Both the position numbers and the translations under genes were made by a program. Under the pieces are notes generated by a model, which did not search any database, was not told the origin of the DNA, and saw only the letters and a program-made list of their open reading frames with translations. From the IMG/VR virus record IMGVR_UViG_2778261657_000007: a stretch of DNA of 7,256 bases, one strand, 5' to 3'. Source of the stretch: a virus (taxonomy: Duplodnaviria > Heunggongvirae > Uroviricota > Caudoviricetes). Positions 1 to 7,256 of this stretch are shown in pieces. Each line of letters begins with the position of its first letter. The first letter of the stretch is position 1.

Positions 1-594
1 ATGCTTATTGGCTATGTCCGCGTATCAACAAATGACCAGAACACGGAATTGCAGCGTAACGCGCTGGAATGCGCGGGATGTGAGCGGATTTTTGAGGACA
101 AAATCAGCGGCACGAAGTCCGACAGGCCGGGACTGAAAAAACTGCTCAGGACATTATCGGAGGGGGATACACTGGTAGTCTGGAAGCTGGACCGGCTGGG
201 GCGTAGTATGCGGCATCTGGTCATTCTGGTTGAGGAACTGCGCGAACGTGGCATTAATTTTCGCAGCCTGACGGATGCTATTGATACCAGCACGCCGATG
301 GGGCGTTTTTTCTTTCATGTGATGGGTGCCCTGGCTGAAATGGAGCGAGAACTCATTGTCGAGCGGACACGCGCCGGACTGGAAGCGGCCAGAGCCAAAG
401 GTCGTATTGGTGGCAGACGTCCGAAACTCACCGCGAGTGAGTGGGAGCAGGTCGGACGGTTGCTGGCTGCGGGGGAATCTCGTCAACGCGTGGCGCTGAT
501 TTTTGATATTGGCCTGTCCACGCTCTATAAAAAATTCCCCTCATCAGCGACAAAGAATAAATTGTGTCATCCCTTAGCCAACCGGGACAAATAG
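1..594 (+). CDS. Serine DNA invertase (Hin/Gin/Pin/Cin family site-specific recombinase)
   Basis: 197-aa ORF beginning exactly at window position 1. N-terminus MLIGYVRVSTNDQ carries the resolvase/invertase catalytic serine (Ser9, codon 25-27), followed by conserved GDTLVVWKLDRLGRS and SLTDAIDTSTPMGRFFFHVMGALAEMERELIVERT blocks and a C-terminal helix-turn-helix (GESRQRVALIFDIGLSTLYKK). Length is typical of invertases (about 190 aa). Its own RBS, promoter and the flanking recombination site are upstream of the window and unseen. Confidence 0.93.
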   Translation: MLIGYVRVSTNDQNTELQRNALECAGCERIFEDKISGTKSDRPGLKKLLRTLSEGDTLVVWKLDRLGRSMRHLVILVEELRERGINFRSLTDAIDTSTPMGRFFFHVMGALAEMERELIVERTRAGLEAARAKGRIGGRRPKLTASEWEQVGRLLAAGESRQRVALIFDIGLSTLYKKFPSSATKNKLCHPLANRDK

Positions 595-1856: not shown

Positions 1857-2375
1857 ATGGCAATGCCGCGCAAACTCAAGTTAATGAACGTCTTTCTGAA
1901 CGGCTACAGCTATCAGGGCGTCGCAAAGTCCGTCACGCTGCCAAAACTGACCCGTAAGCTCGAAAACTATCGCGGTGCGGGGATGAACGGCAGCGCCCCG
2001 GTAGACCTCGGCCTTGATGATGATGCGCTGTCAATGGAGTGGTCGCTCGGTGGCTTCCCGGATTCGGTTATCTGGGAACTTTACGCTGCAACTGGTGTGG
2101 ATGCCGTGCCGATTCGTTTTGCAGGCTCTTACCAGCGTGACGATACCGGCGAAACGGTGGCCGTTGAAGTGGTCATGCGTGGACGTCAGAAAGAAATCGA
2201 CACCGGTGAGGGTAAACAGGGAGAAGACACCGAGTCGAAAATCTCCGTGGTCTGCACCTATTTCCGGCTGACGATGGACGGTAAGGAGCTGGTCGAAATT
2301 GACACCATCAACATGATTGAGAAGGTGAACGGCGTCGACCGGCTGGAGCAACACCGCCGCAATATCGGCCTGTGA
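1857..2375 (+). CDS. FII: Tail tube protein (P2 gpFII-like)
   Basis: 172-aa ORF (P2 gpFII length) immediately after the sheath gene; strong SD AAGGAG at 1843-1848 overlapping the FI stop codon; N-terminus MAMPRKLKLMNVFLNGYSYQG typical of myovirus tube proteins. Confidence 0.92.
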   Translation: MAMPRKLKLMNVFLNGYSYQGVAKSVTLPKLTRKLENYRGAGMNGSAPVDLGLDDDALSMEWSLGGFPDSVIWELYAATGVDAVPIRFAGSYQRDDTGETVAVEVVMRGRQKEIDTGEGKQGEDTESKISVVCTYFRLTMDGKELVEIDTINMIEKVNGVDRLEQHRRNIGL

Positions 2376-2431: not shown

Positions 2432-2707
2432 ATGAACAAAGAAAATGTCATTACCCTGGACAATCCGGTCAAACGTGGTGAGCAGGTTATCGAACAGGTC
2501 ACGCTGATGAAACCCAATGCCGGGACGCTACGCGGTGTCAGTCTGGCTGCGGTCGCGAACTCCGAAGTCGATGCACTGATTAAGGTGCTGCCGCGCATGA
2601 CGGCACCGATGCTGACCGAGCAGGAGGTCGCCGCACTGGAACTGCCTGACCTTGTGGCGCTGGCCGGTAAGGTGGTCGGTTTTTTGTCGCCGAACTCGGT
2701 GCAGTGA
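2432..2707 (+). CDS. E: Tail assembly chaperone gpE (zero-frame product)
   Basis: 91-aa ORF (P2 gpE length) located between the tube and tape-measure genes, the conserved position of the tail chaperone; ends ...KVVGFLSPNSVQ with stop at 2705-2707; weak purine-rich SD (gtgagaaaa, 2421-2429). Confidence 0.88.
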   Translation: MNKENVITLDNPVKRGEQVIEQVTLMKPNAGTLRGVSLAAVANSEVDALIKVLPRMTAPMLTEQEVAALELPDLVALAGKVVGFLSPNSVQ

Positions 2708-2859
2708 CGTTTCCGAAAAATCTCTCGGTCGATGACCTGATGGCGGATGTGGCAGTGGTATTTCACTGGCCGCCATCAGAACTGTATCCCATGAGCCTGA
2801 CCGAACTCATCACATGGCGCGAAAAGGCGCTCAGGCGAAGCGGAAACACGAATGAGTAA
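2432..2859 (+). CDS. E+E': Tail assembly chaperone E+E' made by programmed -1 ribosomal frameshift (predicted 142 aa)
   Basis: Slippery heptamer T_TTT_TTG at 2680-2686 in the E frame. Manual translation of the -1 frame from 2686 gives an open frame, VAELGAVTFPKNLSVDDLMADVAVVFHWPPSELYPMSLTELITWREKALRRSGNTNE, stopping at TAA 2857-2859 and overlapping the T start. Predicted fusion is 85 + 57 = 142 aa, the size of P2 E+E'. Confidence 0.8.
2680..2686 (+). promoter_or_regulatory. -1 frameshift slippery site (TTTTTTG) for E/E' recoding
   Basis: Heptamer of the X_XXY_YYZ form in the E reading frame (codons TTT 2681-2683, TTG 2684-2686); the same heptamer is used in the P2 FETUD operon. Confidence 0.75.
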
Positions 2860-5299
2860 CAATGTAAAATTACAGGTATTGCTCAGGGCTGTTGACCAGG
2901 CATCCCGCCCGTTTAAATCCATCCGCACAGCGAGTAAGTCGCTGTCGGGGGATATCCGGGAAACACAAAAATCACTGCGCGAGCTGAACGGTCAGGCATC
3001 CCGTATTGAGGGATTCCGCAAGACCAGTGCACAGCTTGCCGTGACTGGTCATGCACTTGAAAAGGCACGGCAGGAGGCCGAAGCCCTTGCCACACAGTTT
3101 AAAAACACTGAACGTCCGACCCGTGCTCAGGCGAAAGTGCTGGAATCCGCAAAGCGTGCGGCGGAGGACTTACAGGCGAAATATAACCGCCTGACGGATT
3201 CCGTTAAACGCCAGCAGCGGGAACTGGCCGTTGTGGGAATTAATACCCGCAATCTTGCACATGATGAGCAGGGACTGAAAAACCGTATCAGTGAAACCAC
3301 CGCACAGCTTAACCGTCAGCGTGACGCGCTGGCGCGTGTCAGTGCGCAACAGGCAAAACTTAACGCAGTAAAACAGCGTTATCAGGCAGGCAAGGAACTG
3401 GCCGGAAATATGGCCTCAGTGGGTGCTGCCGGTGTGGGGATTGCGGCGGCGGGAACGATGGCCGGAGTTAAGTTGCTGATGCCCGGTTATGAGTTTGCGC
3501 AGAAAAACTCAGAATTGCAGGCCGTGCTCGGAGTGGCAAAAGACTCCGCCGAAATGACCGCACTACGCAAACAGGCGCGCCAGCTCGGCGACAATACCGC
3601 CGCCTCGGCGGATGATGCGGCCGGTGCACAGATAATCATCGCGAAAGCGGGTGGGGATGTTGATGCCATTCAGGCGGCAACGCCGGTCACGCTGAATATG
3701 GCGCTGGCGAACCGCCGCACGATGGAAGAAAACGCCGCCCTGCTGATGGGGATGAAATCCGCCTTTCAGCTTTCAAACGATAAGGTCGCTCATATCGGGG
3801 ATGTTCTCTCCATGACGATGAACAAAACCGCCGCCGATTTTGACGGCATGAGCGATGCGCTGACCTATGCCGCACCTGTGGCAAAAAATGCCGGTGTCAG
3901 CATTGAAGAAACCGCCGCAATGGTCGGGGCGCTGCATGATGCAAAAATCACAGGCTCAATGGCGGGGACGGGAAGCCGTGCCGTGTTAAGCCGCCTGCAG
4001 GCACCGACGGGAAAAGCATGGGATGCACTTAAAGAGCTTGGAGTGAAAACCTCAGACAGCAAGGGAAACACCCGACCAGTATTTACCATTCTGAAAGAAA
4101 TGCAGGCCAGTTTTGAGAAAAACCGGCTCGGTACTGCCCAGCAGGCTGAATACATGAAAACTATTTTCGGGGAGGAGGCCAGCTCAGCCGCCGCCGTGCT
4201 GATGACTGCCGCCTCAACCGGAAAGCTGGACAAACTGACCGCTGCGTTTAAAGCCTCAGACGGAAAGACCGCAGAGCTGGTAAATATCATGCAGGACAAT
4301 CTCGGCGGTGACTTTAAGGAGTTTCAGTCCGCTTATGAGGCGGTGGGGACTGACCTGTTTGACCAGCAGGAAGGCGCGCTGCATAAGCTCACGCAGACGG
4401 CCACAAAGTATGTGCTAAAACTCGACGGCTGGATCAAGAAAAACAAATCACTGGCGTCAACCATCGGCATCATTGCCGGTGGCGCGCTGGCGCTGACTGG
4501 CATCATCGGTGCAATTGGTCTTGTAGCCTGGCCGGTTATCACCGGCATCAATGCCATCATCGCGGCAGCAGGCGCAATGGGGGCAGTCTTCACGACGGTT
4601 GGCAGTGCTGTTATGACCGCCATCGGGGCTATTAGCTGGCCGGTTGTGGCCGTGGTGGCCGCAATTGTCGCCGGGGCGTTGCTTATCCGTAAATACTGGG
4701 AGCCTGTCAGCGCATTCTTTGGCGGTGTGGTTGAAGGGCTGAAAGTGGCATTTGCGCCGGTGGGGGAACTGTTCACGCCACTTAAGCCGGTGTTTGACTG
4801 GCTGGGTGAAAAGTTACAGGCCGCGTGGCAGTGGTTTAAAAACCTGATTGCCCCGGTTAAAGCCACACAGGACACCCTGAACCGTTGCCGTGACACGGGG
4901 GTCATGTTCGGGCAGGCACTGGCTGACGCGCTGATGCTGCCGCTTAATACGTTCAACAAACTGCGCAGCGGTATTGACTGGGTACTGGAAAAACTCGGTG
5001 TTATCAACAAAGAGTCAGACACACTTGACCAGACCGCCGCCAGAACTCATGCCGCCACGTATGGCACCGGTGGTTATATTCCGGCGACCAGCTCTTATGC
5101 AGGTTATCAGGCTTATCAGCCGGTTACGGCACCGGCTGGCCGCTCTTATGTAGACCAGAGTAAAAACGAATATCACATCAGCCTGACGGGTGGTACTGCG
5201 CCGGGGACACAGCTTGACCGCCAGTTACAGGATGCGCTCGAAAAATACGAGCGGGATAAACGTGCGCGCGCCCGTGCCAGCATGATGCATGACGGTTAA
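2852..5299 (+). CDS. T: Tail tape measure protein (P2 gpT-like)
   Basis: 815-aa ORF (P2 gpT length) directly after the chaperone pair; N-terminal roughly 180 aa are rich in Q/R/K/E/A/L (coiled-coil-like); internal Gly/Ala/Ile-rich hydrophobic block (about 4455-4690); start overlaps the E' stop. Confidence 0.93.
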   Translation: MSNNVKLQVLLRAVDQASRPFKSIRTASKSLSGDIRETQKSLRELNGQASRIEGFRKTSAQLAVTGHALEKARQEAEALATQFKNTERPTRAQAKVLESAKRAAEDLQAKYNRLTDSVKRQQRELAVVGINTRNLAHDEQGLKNRISETTAQLNRQRDALARVSAQQAKLNAVKQRYQAGKELAGNMASVGAAGVGIAAAGTMAGVKLLMPGYEFAQKNSELQAVLGVAKDSAEMTALRKQARQLGDNTAASADDAAGAQIIIAKAGGDVDAIQAATPVTLNMALANRRTMEENAALLMGMKSAFQLSNDKVAHIGDVLSMTMNKTAADFDGMSDALTYAAPVAKNAGVSIEETAAMVGALHDAKITGSMAGTGSRAVLSRLQAPTGKAWDALKELGVKTSDSKGNTRPVFTILKEMQASFEKNRLGTAQQAEYMKTIFGEEASSAAAVLMTAASTGKLDKLTAAFKASDGKTAELVNIMQDNLGGDFKEFQSAYEAVGTDLFDQQEGALHKLTQTATKYVLKLDGWIKKNKSLASTIGIIAGGALALTGIIGAIGLVAWPVITGINAIIAAAGAMGAVFTTVGSAVMTAIGAISWPVVAVVAAIVAGALLIRKYWEPVSAFFGGVVEGLKVAFAPVGELFTPLKPVFDWLGEKLQAAWQWFKNLIAPVKATQDTLNRCRDTGVMFGQALADALMLPLNTFNKLRSGIDWVLEKLGVINKESDTLDQTAARTHAATYGTGGYIPATSSYAGYQAYQPVTAPAGRSYVDQSKNEYHISLTGGTAPGTQLDRQLQDALEKYERDKRARARASMMHDG

Positions 5300-5313: not shown

Positions 5314-5793
5314 ATGATGCTCGCGTTAGGTATGTTTGTTTTTATGCGCCAGACGCTGCCACACCAGACCATGCAGCGTGAATCAGATTATCGCTGGCCG
5401 TCAAATTCCCGTATCGGTAAACGGGATGCCTACCAGTTTCTCGGTGTTGGCGAGGAAAACATGACGCTTGCCGGTGTGCTTTATCCCGAACTGACCGGCG
5501 GCAAGCTGACGATGACCACGCTCAGGATGATGGCTGAGGAAGGCCGGGCGTGGCCGTTGCTGGATGGCACCGGCATGATTTACGGCATGTATGTCATCAG
5601 CAGGGTGAGTGAAACAGGGAGTATTTTCTTTGCAGACGGCACACCCCGGAAAATTGATTTTACGCTGTCGCTCACCCGCGTTGATGAATCACTGGCCGCG
5701 CTTTATGGCGATATCGGTAAACAGGCGGAATCGCTCATCGGTAAGGCTGGCAGTATGGCGACCAGATTCACGGGTATGACGGGGGCGGGATAA
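5314..5793 (+). CDS. U: Tail protein gpU (P2 GpU family)
   Basis: 159-aa ORF (P2 gpU length) in the conserved position after T; strong SD AAGGAGGTGA at 5298-5307; tandem ATG at 5314 and 5317 (5314 taken). Confidence 0.88.
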   Translation: MMLALGMFVFMRQTLPHQTMQRESDYRWPSNSRIGKRDAYQFLGVGEENMTLAGVLYPELTGGKLTMTTLRMMAEEGRAWPLLDGTGMIYGMYVISRVSETGSIFFADGTPRKIDFTLSLTRVDESLAALYGDIGKQAESLIGKAGSMATRFTGMTGAG

Positions 5794-6956
5794 TGCTGGA
5801 TGCGCTGACATTTGATGCAGGCAGTACGCTGACGCCGGATTACATGCTGATGCTCGACAGCAGGGATATTACCGGCAATATCAGCGACCGTCTGATGAGC
5901 ATGACCCTGACCGATAACCGGGGCTTTGAGGCTGACCAGCTTGATATTGAACTGAACGATGCCGACGGGCAGGTCGAGCTGCCGATTCGTGGCGCTGTCC
6001 TGACGGTGTATATCGGCTGGAAAGGTTTTGCCCTGGTATGCAAAGGGAAATTTACCGTTGATGAGGTTGAACACAGGGGCGCGCCGGATGTGGTCACCAT
6101 CCGCGCCCGGAGTGCAGATTTTCGCGGGACGCTCAATTCCCGCCGGGAAGGCTCATGGCATGACACCACGCTCGGTGCGATTGTTGAGGCGATAGCCTCC
6201 CGTAACAGGCTGGAAGCCAGTGTCGCGCCGTCACTGGCCGGAATTAAAATCCCGCACATCGACCAGTCGCAGGAGTCTGATGCGAAATTCCTGACCCGTC
6301 TTGCAGAACGCAACGGCGGTGAGGTGTCGGTAAAAATGGGAAAACTGTTGTTTCTCAAAGCGGGGCAGGGGGTGACGGCCAGCGGTAAAAAAATCCCGCA
6401 GGTCACCATCACCCGCAGTGACGGCGACCGCCATCATTTTGCGATTGCTGACCGTGGAGCCTATACCGGCGTAACGGCAAAGTGGTTACACACCAAAGAC
6501 CCGAAGCCGCAAAAGCAGAAGGTAAAACTGAAACGCAAAAAGAAAGAGAAACACCTGCGCGCACTGGAGCACCCGAAAGCGAAACCAGTCACGCAGAAGA
6601 AAGCGCCAAAAGTACCGGAAGCGCGCGAAGGTGAATACATGGCCGGTGAGGCTGACAACGTTTTTGCACTGACCACGGTATATGCCACGAAAGCACAGGC
6701 CATGCGCGCCGCTCAGGCGAAGTGGGATAAACTGCAACGGGGTGTGGCGGAGTTCTCCATCAGCCTGGCTACCGGTCGGGCAGATATTTACACGGAAACA
6801 CCGGTTAAAGTGTCAGGCTTTAAGCGCGTCATAGACGAGCAGGACTGGACAATCACTAAGGTGACACATTTTCTGAATAATAGCGGCTTCACGACGTCCT
6901 TGGAGCTTGAGGTCAGGCTTTCTGATGTGGAGTACGAAACAGAAGATGATGAGTGA
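5793..6956 (+). CDS. D: Baseplate hub / late control gene D protein (P2 gpD-like)
   Basis: 387-aa ORF (P2 gpD length); start overlaps the U stop in TAATG (5791-5795), indicating translational coupling; last gene of the FETUD operon; carries an internal Lys-rich segment. Confidence 0.88.
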   Translation: MLDALTFDAGSTLTPDYMLMLDSRDITGNISDRLMSMTLTDNRGFEADQLDIELNDADGQVELPIRGAVLTVYIGWKGFALVCKGKFTVDEVEHRGAPDVVTIRARSADFRGTLNSRREGSWHDTTLGAIVEAIASRNRLEASVAPSLAGIKIPHIDQSQESDAKFLTRLAERNGGEVSVKMGKLLFLKAGQGVTASGKKIPQVTITRSDGDRHHFAIADRGAYTGVTAKWLHTKDPKPQKQKVKLKRKKKEKHLRALEHPKAKPVTQKKAPKVPEAREGEYMAGEADNVFALTTVYATKAQAMRAAQAKWDKLQRGVAEFSISLATGRADIYTETPVKVSGFKRVIDEQDWTITKVTHFLNNSGFTTSLELEVRLSDVEYETEDDE

Positions 6957-7037: not shown

Positions 7038-7256
7038 ATGTTTCATTGTCCTTTATGCCAGCATGCCGCACATGCGCGTACAAGCCGCTATATCACTGAC
7101 ACGACAAAAGAGCGTTATCACCAGTGTCAGAACGTGAATTGCAGCGCCACGTTCATCACTTATGAGTCGGTACAGCGATACATCGTGAAGCCGGGAGAAG
7201 TCCACGCCGTAAGACCGCACCCGTTGCCGTCAGGGCAGCAAATTATGTGGATGTAA
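7038..7256 (+). CDS. ogr: Late gene transcriptional activator Ogr (Ogr/Delta zinc-finger family)
   Basis: 72-aa product MFHCPLCQHAAHARTSRYITDTTKERYHQCQNVNC... with Cys4-X2-Cys7-X22-Cys30-X4-Cys35, the Ogr/Delta Cys4 zinc-binding arrangement. SD GGAAGAGGTG at 7022-7031. The six-frame ORF begins at 6975, but that extension lacks an RBS and overlaps the AT-rich promoter region, so the internal ATG at 7038 is taken as the start. Confidence 0.88.
   Translation: MFHCPLCQHAAHARTSRYITDTTKERYHQCQNVNCSATFITYESVQRYIVKPGEVHAVRPHPLPSGQQIMWM

What the first reader, a model, noticed from the sequence alone, without database searches (positions are those of the whole stretch)
2432..2859. Programmed -1 frameshift producing tail chaperone E+E' from a TTTTTTG slippery site
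The E ORF stops at 2707, but the -1 frame stays open from the slippery heptamer at 2680-2686 to a TAA at 2857-2859. That gives a 142-aa fusion whose stop overlaps the tape-measure start. This is the conserved chaperone recoding arrangement of long-tailed phages (lambda G/GT, P2 E/E'). I translated the -1 frame by hand from the sequence, and the extension is free of stops for 57 codons, which is unlikely by chance in an unselected frame.
Basis: partly seen in the sequence, partly recalled or inferred. Interest (0 to 1): 0.5.

Follow-up and report, generated by a model that had tools for sequence, protein, structure and literature searches.

The report
Known P2 phage tail-chaperone frameshift

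Summary
Every coordinate in the finding checks out. E is 2432-2707 (91 aa). T_TTT_TTG lies at 2680-2686, in phase with E. The -1 frame is open from 2671 to the TAA at 2857-2859, giving a 142-aa, 15.45-kDa fusion. Its stop overlaps the tape-measure ATG at 2852.

The chance argument is weak: 57 open codons have P of about 0.02-0.09, and TTTTTTG occurs as often as expected. The strong evidence is elsewhere. The region is 98.5% identical to phage P2, whose record annotates E, E+E' and the frameshift site at this spot. The -1 peptide hits Pfam Phage_P2_GpE (79.8 bits) and E hits Phage_TAC_7. In 18 diverged Peduoviridae and 77 of 79 enterobacterial prophages, E' lies in the -1 frame with an in-phase slippery heptamer. 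Substitutions are synonymous-biased only in the E' frame.

Verdict: supported, already known, low interest.

One side lead came up. An anti-Shine-Dalgarno-complementary AGGUG (2670-2674), 5 nt upstream of the heptamer, is under strong synonymous constraint. It may stimulate shifting on a heptamer that is a poor shifter in E. coli reporters.

The parts
1857..2375 (+). FII tail tube gene (upstream neighbour that defines the chaperone position)
   Evidence: Pfam Phage_tube PF04985, 203.6 bits. Same order as P2 FII-E-E'-T.
2432..2707 (+). Gene E, zero-frame tail assembly chaperone, 91 aa, 9.66 kDa
   Evidence: ORF and translation. Pfam Phage_TAC_7 PF10109, 47 bits. 98.8% identical to P2 gpE over the 85 residues up to the shift site.
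2668..2670 (+). TAA stop in the -1 frame that closes it just upstream, so the shift can only be productive between 2671 and 2707
2670..2677 (+). Candidate 5' stimulator. This is an SD-like AGGUG (2670-2674), extendable to AGGUGGUC, which is complementary to the 16S rRNA 3' end GAUCACCU with one G-U pair. It is inferred, not demonstrated.
   Evidence: Codons AAG 2669 and GTG 2672 have synonymous diversity 0.03 and 0.12, against a median of 0.46 over 87 E codon columns in 81 sequences. The amino acid varies (K/Q/E/R) but 'AG' is kept in 80 of 81. AGGKG is one of the SD-like stimulators listed in PMC4066793.
2680..2686 (+). Slippery heptamer T_TTT_TTG, in phase with E
   Evidence: Identical to the P2 site. 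T_TTT_TTN is present in 77 of 79 enterobacterial prophage loci and T_TTT_TTG in 15 of 18 diverged phages. GGT and TTT are invariant.
2686..2859 (+). E' segment: -1 frame extension of 57 codons plus TAA, translated only as the C-terminal part of E+E' (2432-2686 joined to 2686-2859; 142 aa, 15.45 kDa)
   Evidence: Translation. Pfam Phage_P2_GpE PF06528, 79.8 bits. Synonymous-biased substitutions occur only in this frame.
2852..5299 (+). Gene T, tape measure protein. Its ATG overlaps the E' stop (ATGAGTAA) and has only a weak SD.
   Evidence: Pfam PhageMin_Tail, 155.7 bits. SD score -3.5 kcal/mol. Same layout in P2 and 186.

Best explanation
Genes E and E' of a P2-type prophage are decoded by programmed -1 ribosomal frameshifting.

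Most ribosomes read E (2432-2707) to its TGA and make the 91-aa chaperone. A minority slip back one base when tRNA-Phe and tRNA-Leu occupy UUU-UUG of U_UUU_UUG (2680-2686). They re-pair on UUU-UUU, continue with GUC at 2686, and end at UAA 2857-2859. The product is the 142-aa E+E', with junction ...VVGFL|VAELG....

By analogy with lambda G/GT, the shared E part binds the tape measure protein T. The E' domain recruits the tail tube protein, and the fixed ratio set by the shift frequency is needed for tail assembly. Neither protein ends up in the virion.

Shown here: the sequence anatomy, near-identity to P2, family membership of both parts, conservation of the -1 arrangement and heptamer, and purifying selection on the E' frame.

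Taken from the literature on P2: that the shift really occurs, at a rate a few-fold higher than lambda's roughly 1 in 30.

Inferred: the division of labour between E and E' (from lambda), and any role for the upstream AGGUG.
For: Identity to P2 and the P2 annotation:
- Region 2380-2900 is 98.5% identical to P2, with only 7 differences in 451 nt and none in the heptamer or the E/E' overlap.
- The P2 record carries E, the joined E+E' CDS and the frameshift-site feature.

Family membership and gene context:
- E is Phage_TAC_7 and E' is Phage_P2_GpE, at 79.8 bits against a cut-off of 23.
- The neighbouring genes are sheath, tube, tape measure, GpU, GPD and Ogr.

Conservation of the arrangement:
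- A tblastn search with the fusion protein finds 418 phage records. In the 60 sampled rows, 57 match in two pieces.
- In 18 diverged Peduoviridae, with E identity down to 33%, E' is always in the -1 frame. Fifteen have in-phase T_TTT_TTG. Two have other X_XXY_YYZ heptamers at the same alignment column (C_CCT_TTC and A_AAT_TTT). Mannheimia has G_GGA_AAG further downstream, and that record itself notes it as slippery.
- 77 of 79 prophage loci from different Enterobacterales species show the same arrangement. The two exceptions carry indels.
- The codon before the heptamer varies (GGT, ACT, TCT, CCT, GAT, AGT) but always ends in T.

Codon-level evidence:
- TTG makes up 16 of 276 Leu codons elsewhere in E/E' but 16 of 16 at the site.
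- Comparing the window with phage 186, differing codons are 8 synonymous to 9 non-synonymous in the E' frame, against 0 to 18 in the E frame.
- No conserved start codon or usable SD exists for E'.

Literature: PMC3091744 and PMC5009743.
Against: - Nothing here measures translation in this particular prophage.
- U_UUU_UUG alone shifts only 0.12-0.77% in E. coli reporters (PMC4066793 supplement), so the site needs context help that has not been identified with certainty.
- No significant downstream RNA structure was found (z = +0.61; no covariation).
- RefSeq/PGAP annotates E' as a separate GTG-initiated 51-aa ORF.
- The primary P2 paper could not be read.
Confidence: 0.95

Rival explanations
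1. E' is a separate small gene, translated on its own from GTG 2704 (51 aa, as RefSeq/PGAP calls it) or from ATG 2740 (39 aa). No frameshift is involved.
For: PGAP annotates a 'GpE family phage tail protein' CDS at the equivalent of 2704-2859 in E. coli chromosomes. Several phage records also annotate short stand-alone ORFs. The Met at E' residue 19 is fairly well conserved.
Against: - GTG 2704 is found only in the window and in P2; it is absent in 186 and the other relatives.
- Its only SD-like sequence sits 1 nt from the start, and ATG 2740 has none (-2.9 kcal/mol).
- Some relatives have no start-like codon at the Met-19 position (Ralstonia YO161_4; Kp4871-3).
- This model would not explain the invariant in-phase heptamer or the constant -1 relation to E.
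- The P2 literature reports that E' is made as an extension of E.
Confidence: 0.03
2. The fusion arises from transcriptional slippage. RNA polymerase adds one U in the T6 run, so a fraction of mRNAs encode E+E' in a single frame, with junction ...GFFVAELG....
For: A run of six T is present at 2680-2685. Bacterial RNA polymerase slips efficiently on runs of 9 A or T (PMC5009743).
Against: - Six residues is well below the run length at which efficient slippage is reported.
- Relatives with C_CCT_TTC, A_AAT_TTT or G_GGA_AAG in place of the T run have homopolymer runs of only 3-4 nt, yet keep the X_XXY_YYZ phase that matters only to ribosomes.
- Strict conservation of phase, and of the base after the run, fits tRNA re-pairing.
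Confidence: 0.02
3. The open -1 frame is a chance ORF in a non-coding spacer between E and T.
For: By length alone the open frame is only mildly unusual (P 0.02-0.09), and the heptamer count is at expectation.
Against: The peptide scores 79.8 bits against Pfam Phage_P2_GpE. It is conserved across 418 phage records from many host genera. Substitutions show a synonymous bias in that frame only.
Confidence: 0

Closest known systems
Bacteriophage P2 genes E and E+E' (Peduovirus P2, FETUD tail operon; Christie et al. 2002, J Bacteriol 184:6522)
   Same: The gene order is the same (FI-FII-E/E'-T-U-D-ogr). The heptamer, overlap, product sizes (91 and 142 aa) and the stop/start overlap with T are all the same. 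Nucleotide identity is 98.5%, with 1 amino-acid change in E (S29N) and 1 in E' (I to V).
   Different: Only point substitutions within this region. Outside it, the prophage carries a serine recombinase where P2 has the Z/fun gene.
Phage lambda G/GT tail assembly chaperone frameshift (Levin et al. 1993; Xu, Hendrix and Duda 2004, 2013, 2014)
   Same: The position is the same, between the tail tube gene and the tape measure gene. Both use a -1 shift near the end of the first ORF and make two products that share an N-terminus. Both serve as a chaperone for the tape measure and set a fixed product ratio (PMC5009743).
   Different: The Pfam families differ, and I did not test sequence similarity to lambda G/T. 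The heptamer differs (lambda gpG cluster G_GGA_AAG). P2 has a contractile tail. P2 efficiency is reported as 2-3 fold higher than lambda's roughly 1:30.
E. coli dnaX and IS911/IS3 -1 frameshift signals with an upstream Shine-Dalgarno-like stimulator
   Same: A slippery X_XXY_YYZ heptamer is preceded by a sequence complementary to the 16S 3' end. AGGKG is among the SD-like stimulators listed for IS911-type contexts (PMC4066793).
   Different: The spacing here is 5 nt to the heptamer, or 6 nt to its second base. That is the lower edge of the 6-17 nt window used in PMC4066793 and below the 8-14 nt reported for dnaX. There is no supported downstream hairpin or pseudoknot. A stimulatory effect has not been tested.

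Membership tests
P2-type E/E+E' tail chaperone with programmed -1 frameshift (Peduoviridae) | Lies between the tail tube gene (FII) and the tape measure gene (T) in the late tail operon | tested here: met
   FII at 1857-2375 (Phage_tube) and T at 2852-5299 (PhageMin_Tail). Same order as the P2 record.
P2-type E/E+E' tail chaperone with programmed -1 frameshift (Peduoviridae) | The zero-frame product is homologous to gpE (Phage_TAC_7) | tested here: met
   PF10109, 47 bits against a cut-off of 25. 98.8% identical to P2 gpE over its first 85 residues.
P2-type E/E+E' tail chaperone with programmed -1 frameshift (Peduoviridae) | The downstream segment is homologous to the E' domain (Phage_P2_GpE) and lies in the -1 frame relative to E | tested here: met
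   PF06528, 79.8 bits. Frame offset -1 in the window, in 18 of 18 phages and in 77 of 79 prophages.
P2-type E/E+E' tail chaperone with programmed -1 frameshift (Peduoviridae) | In-phase slippery heptamer (T_TTT_TTG in P2) inside the short E/E' overlap | tested here: met
   Heptamer at 2680-2686, in phase. Identical to the P2 site. Conserved at nucleotide level.
P2-type E/E+E' tail chaperone with programmed -1 frameshift (Peduoviridae) | E' has no translation start of its own | tested here: met
   No conserved start codon. No usable SD before GTG 2704 or ATG 2740.
P2-type E/E+E' tail chaperone with programmed -1 frameshift (Peduoviridae) | The fusion protein is actually produced and is essential for tail assembly | not testable with these tools
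   Reported for P2 itself (cited in PMC3091744, and PMC5009743; P2 record note 'essential tail protein'). The primary paper is not held.
Lambda G/GT-type conserved tail chaperone frameshift (Xu et al. 2004) | Two overlapping ORFs between the major tail/tube gene and the tape measure gene, joined by a -1 shift at a slippery site near the end of the first | tested here: met
Lambda G/GT-type conserved tail chaperone frameshift (Xu et al. 2004) | Sequence homology to lambda gpG/gpT | not tested
   The Pfam hits are to P2-specific families only. This is a functional analogue, not a demonstrated sequence relative.
SD-stimulated bacterial -1 frameshift signals (dnaX, IS911 type) | Sequence upstream of the heptamer that is complementary to the anti-SD | tested here: met
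   AGGUGGUC at 2670-2677, -8.4 kcal/mol for TAAGGTGGT. Under synonymous constraint.
SD-stimulated bacterial -1 frameshift signals (dnaX, IS911 type) | Spacing within the experimentally stimulatory range | tested here: inconclusive
   AGGUG ends 5 nt before the heptamer, or 6 nt before its second base. That is the lower edge of the 6-17 nt range and outside 8-14 nt. SD elements placed very close to the site attenuate -1 shifting.
SD-stimulated bacterial -1 frameshift signals (dnaX, IS911 type) | Downstream stimulatory hairpin or pseudoknot | tested here: not met
   Fold z-score +0.61. No covariation above shuffles for the candidate helices.

The most novel reading that the evidence does not exclude
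The conserved AGGUG(G/A)U(C/U) at 2670-2677, 5 nt upstream of U_UUU_UUG, pairs with the 16S rRNA 3' end in elongating ribosomes. This would be the context element that raises shifting on a poor heptamer (0.12-0.77% in E. coli reporters) to the several-percent level reported for P2. It would be an SD-type 5' stimulator acting at an unusually short spacing, and it is shared by most P2-like phages. I could not establish whether this has already been described for P2, because the primary paper is not held.
Probability: 0.4. Interest if true: 0.3.

Novelty: already known. Interest (0 to 1): 0.1.

Why it matters
For this window the result matters mainly for annotation. The 51-aa 'GpE family' ORF that automated pipelines call at 2704-2859 should instead be the joined CDS E+E' (2432-2686 plus 2686-2859). 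The biology itself is textbook recoding.

The only point of wider interest concerns frameshift efficiency. P2's heptamer is a weak shifter in reporter assays, yet the phage is reported to shift at several percent. The strongly constrained SD-like AGGUG just upstream offers a simple, testable explanation for that gap.

Tried and rejected
- **Chance tests.** ORF length (P 0.02-0.09) and motif count (2 observed, 1.8 expected) are too weak to support the claim on their own.
- **Downstream stimulatory RNA structure.** The single-sequence fold is not better than shuffles (z = +0.61). RNAalifold on 76 sequences gives only a weak long-range pairing of AGGUGRUC with GAYGAYCU (-4.6 kcal/mol) with little covariation. 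A 5-bp hairpin just 3' of the heptamer, and a hairpin enclosing the heptamer, show no covariation above column shuffles. All were rejected as unsupported.
- **Independent initiation of E'.** Rejected.
- **Transcriptional slippage.** Rejected as the main route.
- **Two prophages with E' apparently in the +1 frame.** These are loci with indels: a T5 run in L051 and an upstream indel in L075. They are not alternative recoding.
- **NCBIfam.** No hit for E or E'.
- **PDB sequence search.** No relative with a solved structure.
- **Primary P2 paper.** Could not be retrieved by DOI or PMC id.
- **Not run.** Structure prediction and the large protein searches, because they could not change the verdict.

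Full report
**Observation**

- E runs from ATG 2432 to TGA 2705-2707 and encodes 91 aa.
- TTTTTTG occupies 2680-2686. Because E codons start at 2678, 2681 and 2684 (GGT TTT TTG), the heptamer is in the canonical X_XXY_YYZ phase.
- The -1 frame is closed by TAA at 2668-2670. It is then open for 62 codons, 57 of them counted from 2686, until TAA 2857-2859.
- Joining 2432-2686 to 2686-2859 gives 142 aa and 15,450 Da. E alone is 9,664 Da.
- The TAA lies inside ATGAGTAA, so it overlaps the tape-measure start at 2852.

A stop-free run of 57 codons has P = 0.084 by shuffling, 0.09 analytically, and 0.023 in the -1 frames of the window's own genes. TTTTTTG occurs twice in the window against 1.8 expected.

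**What it is**

The window is the late tail operon of a P2-type prophage. Pfam identifies the following:
- a serine recombinase at 1-594;
- tail sheath FI at 654-1844;
- tail tube FII at 1857-2375;
- tape measure T at 2852-5299;
- GpU at 5314-5793;
- GPD at 5793-6956;
- Ogr at 7038-7256.

The whole window matches E. coli chromosomes at up to 98.4% identity, and 1,559 of 5,426 complete genomes hold most of it.

Region 2380-2900 is 98.5% identical to phage P2. The aligned stretch 2420-2870 has 7 substitutions, none between about 2636 and 2757, so the heptamer and the whole E/E' overlap are identical to P2. The P2 record annotates E, the joined CDS E+E' ('shares amino terminus with gpE; -1 frameshift; essential tail protein') and a 'site of -1 translational frameshift'. 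That site maps to the base right after the terminal G of the heptamer.

E matches Pfam Phage_TAC_7 (47 bits). The -1 peptide matches Phage_P2_GpE (79.8 bits, cut-off 23).

**Comparative evidence**

A tblastn search with the conceptual fusion finds 418 phage records from Escherichia, Yersinia, Klebsiella, Salmonella, Burkholderia, Ralstonia, Pseudomonas, Mannheimia and others. Of the 60 sampled rows, 57 match as two pieces.

I fetched 18 diverged Peduoviridae loci, with E identity from 98.8% down to 33%.
- In all 18, the E' homologue is in the -1 frame relative to E.
- Fifteen have in-phase T_TTT_TTG.
- ST16-OXA48phi5.4 has C_CCT_TTC and E. coli phage 520873 has A_AAT_TTT, both at the same alignment column.
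- Mannheimia 587AP1 has G_GGA_AAG further downstream, and its record itself notes this as slippery.
- The codon before the heptamer varies (GGT, ACT, TCT, CCT, GAT, AGT) but always ends in T.
- TTG accounts for 16 of 276 Leu codons elsewhere in E/E' but 16 of 16 at the site.

A scan of one genome per species returned 80 prophage loci from different Enterobacterales.
- 77 of 79 analysable loci have E' in the -1 frame.
- The heptamer is T_TTT_TTG in 62, T_TTT_TTA in 13 and T_TTT_TTC in 2.
- The two exceptions carry indels: a T5 run plus another indel in Enterobacter sp. EA-1, and an upstream indel in a Buttiauxella MAG.

In the stretch covered by neither E nor T, codon differences between the window and phage 186 are 8 synonymous to 9 non-synonymous in the E' frame. 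They are 0 to 18 in the E frame and 5 to 15 in the third frame. The -1 frame is therefore the one under purifying selection.

**Mechanism**

The best explanation is tandem -1 slippage of the P-site and A-site tRNAs on U_UUU_UUG, with decoding resuming at GUC 2686. This gives E and E+E' in a fixed ratio.

Published statements support this:
- P2 shifts at TTTTTTG to give the 91-aa and 142-aa proteins (PMC3091744).
- Lambda G:GT is about 30:1, and P2 and its relatives shift 2-3 fold more often (PMC5009743).
- In lambda, the shared part binds the tape measure and the -1 domain binds the tail tube subunit.

The assignment of these roles to E and E' is by analogy only. From memory, the abstract of Christie et al. 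2002 gives a frequency of about 10% and shows by complementation that E' is essential. I could not read that paper.

**Rivals**

*Independent initiation.* RefSeq/PGAP annotates E' as a separate GTG-initiated 51-aa ORF. GTG 2704 exists only in the window and P2, and its only SD-like sequence is 1 nt away. ATG 2740 has none. Some relatives have no start-like codon at the Met-19 position.

*Transcriptional slippage.* This is unlikely. Efficient slippage is reported for runs of 9. Relatives that replace the T run keep an in-phase X_XXY_YYZ motif whose homopolymer runs are only 3-4 nt long.

*Chance ORF.* Excluded.

**Stimulatory elements**

No downstream structure is supported. The 80 nt after the heptamer fold no better than shuffles (z = +0.61). 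On a 76-sequence ungapped alignment, neither RNAalifold nor two hand-specified helices show covariation above controls. This agrees with the literature statement that P2 lacks such a structure.

One thing stood out. The two codons AAG GTG (2669-2674), just 5' of the site, have synonymous diversity 0.03 and 0.12, against a median of 0.46 over 87 codon columns. They rank just behind the heptamer codons and one dual-coded codon.
- At the first of these codons the amino acid varies, but the codons are AAG 65, CAG 9, GAG 3, AGG 3 and AAA 1. Elsewhere in E, Lys is AAA 201 to AAG 76.
- The conserved AGGUG, extended as AGGUG(G/A)U(C/U), is complementary to the 16S 3' end.
- Here the distance is 6 nt, the lower edge of that range. 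It is shorter than the 8-14 nt reported for dnaX, and very close SD elements can attenuate -1 shifting.
- Most diverged T_TTT_TTG phages also have GAGG, AGGT, GGAG or GGNGG in this position.
- UUUUUUG alone shifts only 0.118% in E. coli reporters, 0.247% in the IS911 context and 0.765% with the IS3 pseudoknot. Some context element seems to be needed, and this is the best candidate.

This is inference. The (K/E)-V dipeptide is itself fairly conserved, and the direction of any effect is untested.

**Comparison, novelty and verdict**

This is a member of the P2 E/E+E' family on every sequence criterion I could test. It is a functional analogue of lambda G/GT. The feature is already known and is annotated in the P2 reference genome. 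Its practical value here is correct annotation of the joined CDS. Interest is low (0.1).

The most novel reading still open is that the constrained AGGUG is a short-spacing SD-type stimulator of this frameshift. I give that a probability of about 0.4, with modest specialist interest if true.

Noticed in passing
window 2669-2677: The SD-like AGGUG(G)UC, 5 nt upstream of the slippery heptamer, is under strong synonymous constraint. Codon column AAG is 65 of 66 Lys, plus CAG, GAG and AGG variants; GTG is 75 of 80 Val. Synonymous diversity is 0.03 and 0.12 against a median of 0.46. It is complementary to the 16S 3' end and may be a stimulator or modulator of the frameshift.
   Followed up: partly
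window 2680-2686 versus PMC4066793 supplement: UUUUUUG gives only 0.12-0.77% -1 shifting in E. coli reporter contexts, yet P2 is reported to shift 2-3 fold more than lambda's roughly 3%. The source of the extra efficiency is not explained by any supported RNA structure.
   Followed up: partly
window 2704-2859; L002 4204-4359: RefSeq/PGAP annotates E' in E. coli chromosomes as a free-standing 51-aa GTG-initiated 'GpE family phage tail protein' rather than as the joined E+E' CDS. Many phage records do likewise or leave it unannotated. This is a systematic annotation gap.
   Followed up: yes
window 2852-2859: The tape-measure ATG has only a weak SD (-3.5 kcal/mol) and overlaps the E' stop (ATGAGTAA), 145 nt after the E stop. 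The overlap is conserved in relatives. Translation of T might be partly coupled to the frameshifted ribosomes, which would tie T dosage to the shift rate. This is speculative.
   Followed up: no
window 1-594 and 557-594; L002 1-2094: A Hin/Gin/Pin-type serine recombinase (Resolvase plus HTH_7) replaces P2's Z/fun gene. In the related E. coli locus it is preceded by oppositely oriented tail fibre assembly genes, which suggests an invertible tail-fibre segment. Homology to P2 resumes at about 562, so the last 11 or so codons of the recombinase overlap the position of the P2 pF late-promoter activator-binding site.
   Followed up: partly
L014 643-649, L018 652-658, L017 682-688: Three diverged Peduoviridae replace T_TTT_TTG with other in-phase heptamers: C_CCT_TTC and A_AAT_TTT at the same alignment column, and G_GGA_AAG further downstream in a Mannheimia phage. 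All three lack the upstream SD-like motif.
   Followed up: partly
L051 (Enterobacter sp. EA-1, CP025776.1) about 700-712; L075: In L051 the T run has five T instead of six and E carries a further indel, so E' is no longer reachable by a -1 shift. L075 has an upstream indel in E. These are either decayed prophages or homopolymer sequencing errors.
   Followed up: partly
window 2671-2675 with 2687-2691; 2670-2677 with 2731-2738: The AGGUG region can pair with UCGCC just after the heptamer (94% of cells paired across 76 sequences) and with GAUGACCU 50 nt downstream. Neither pairing shows compensatory changes, so this is indistinguishable from sequence conservation.
   Followed up: yes
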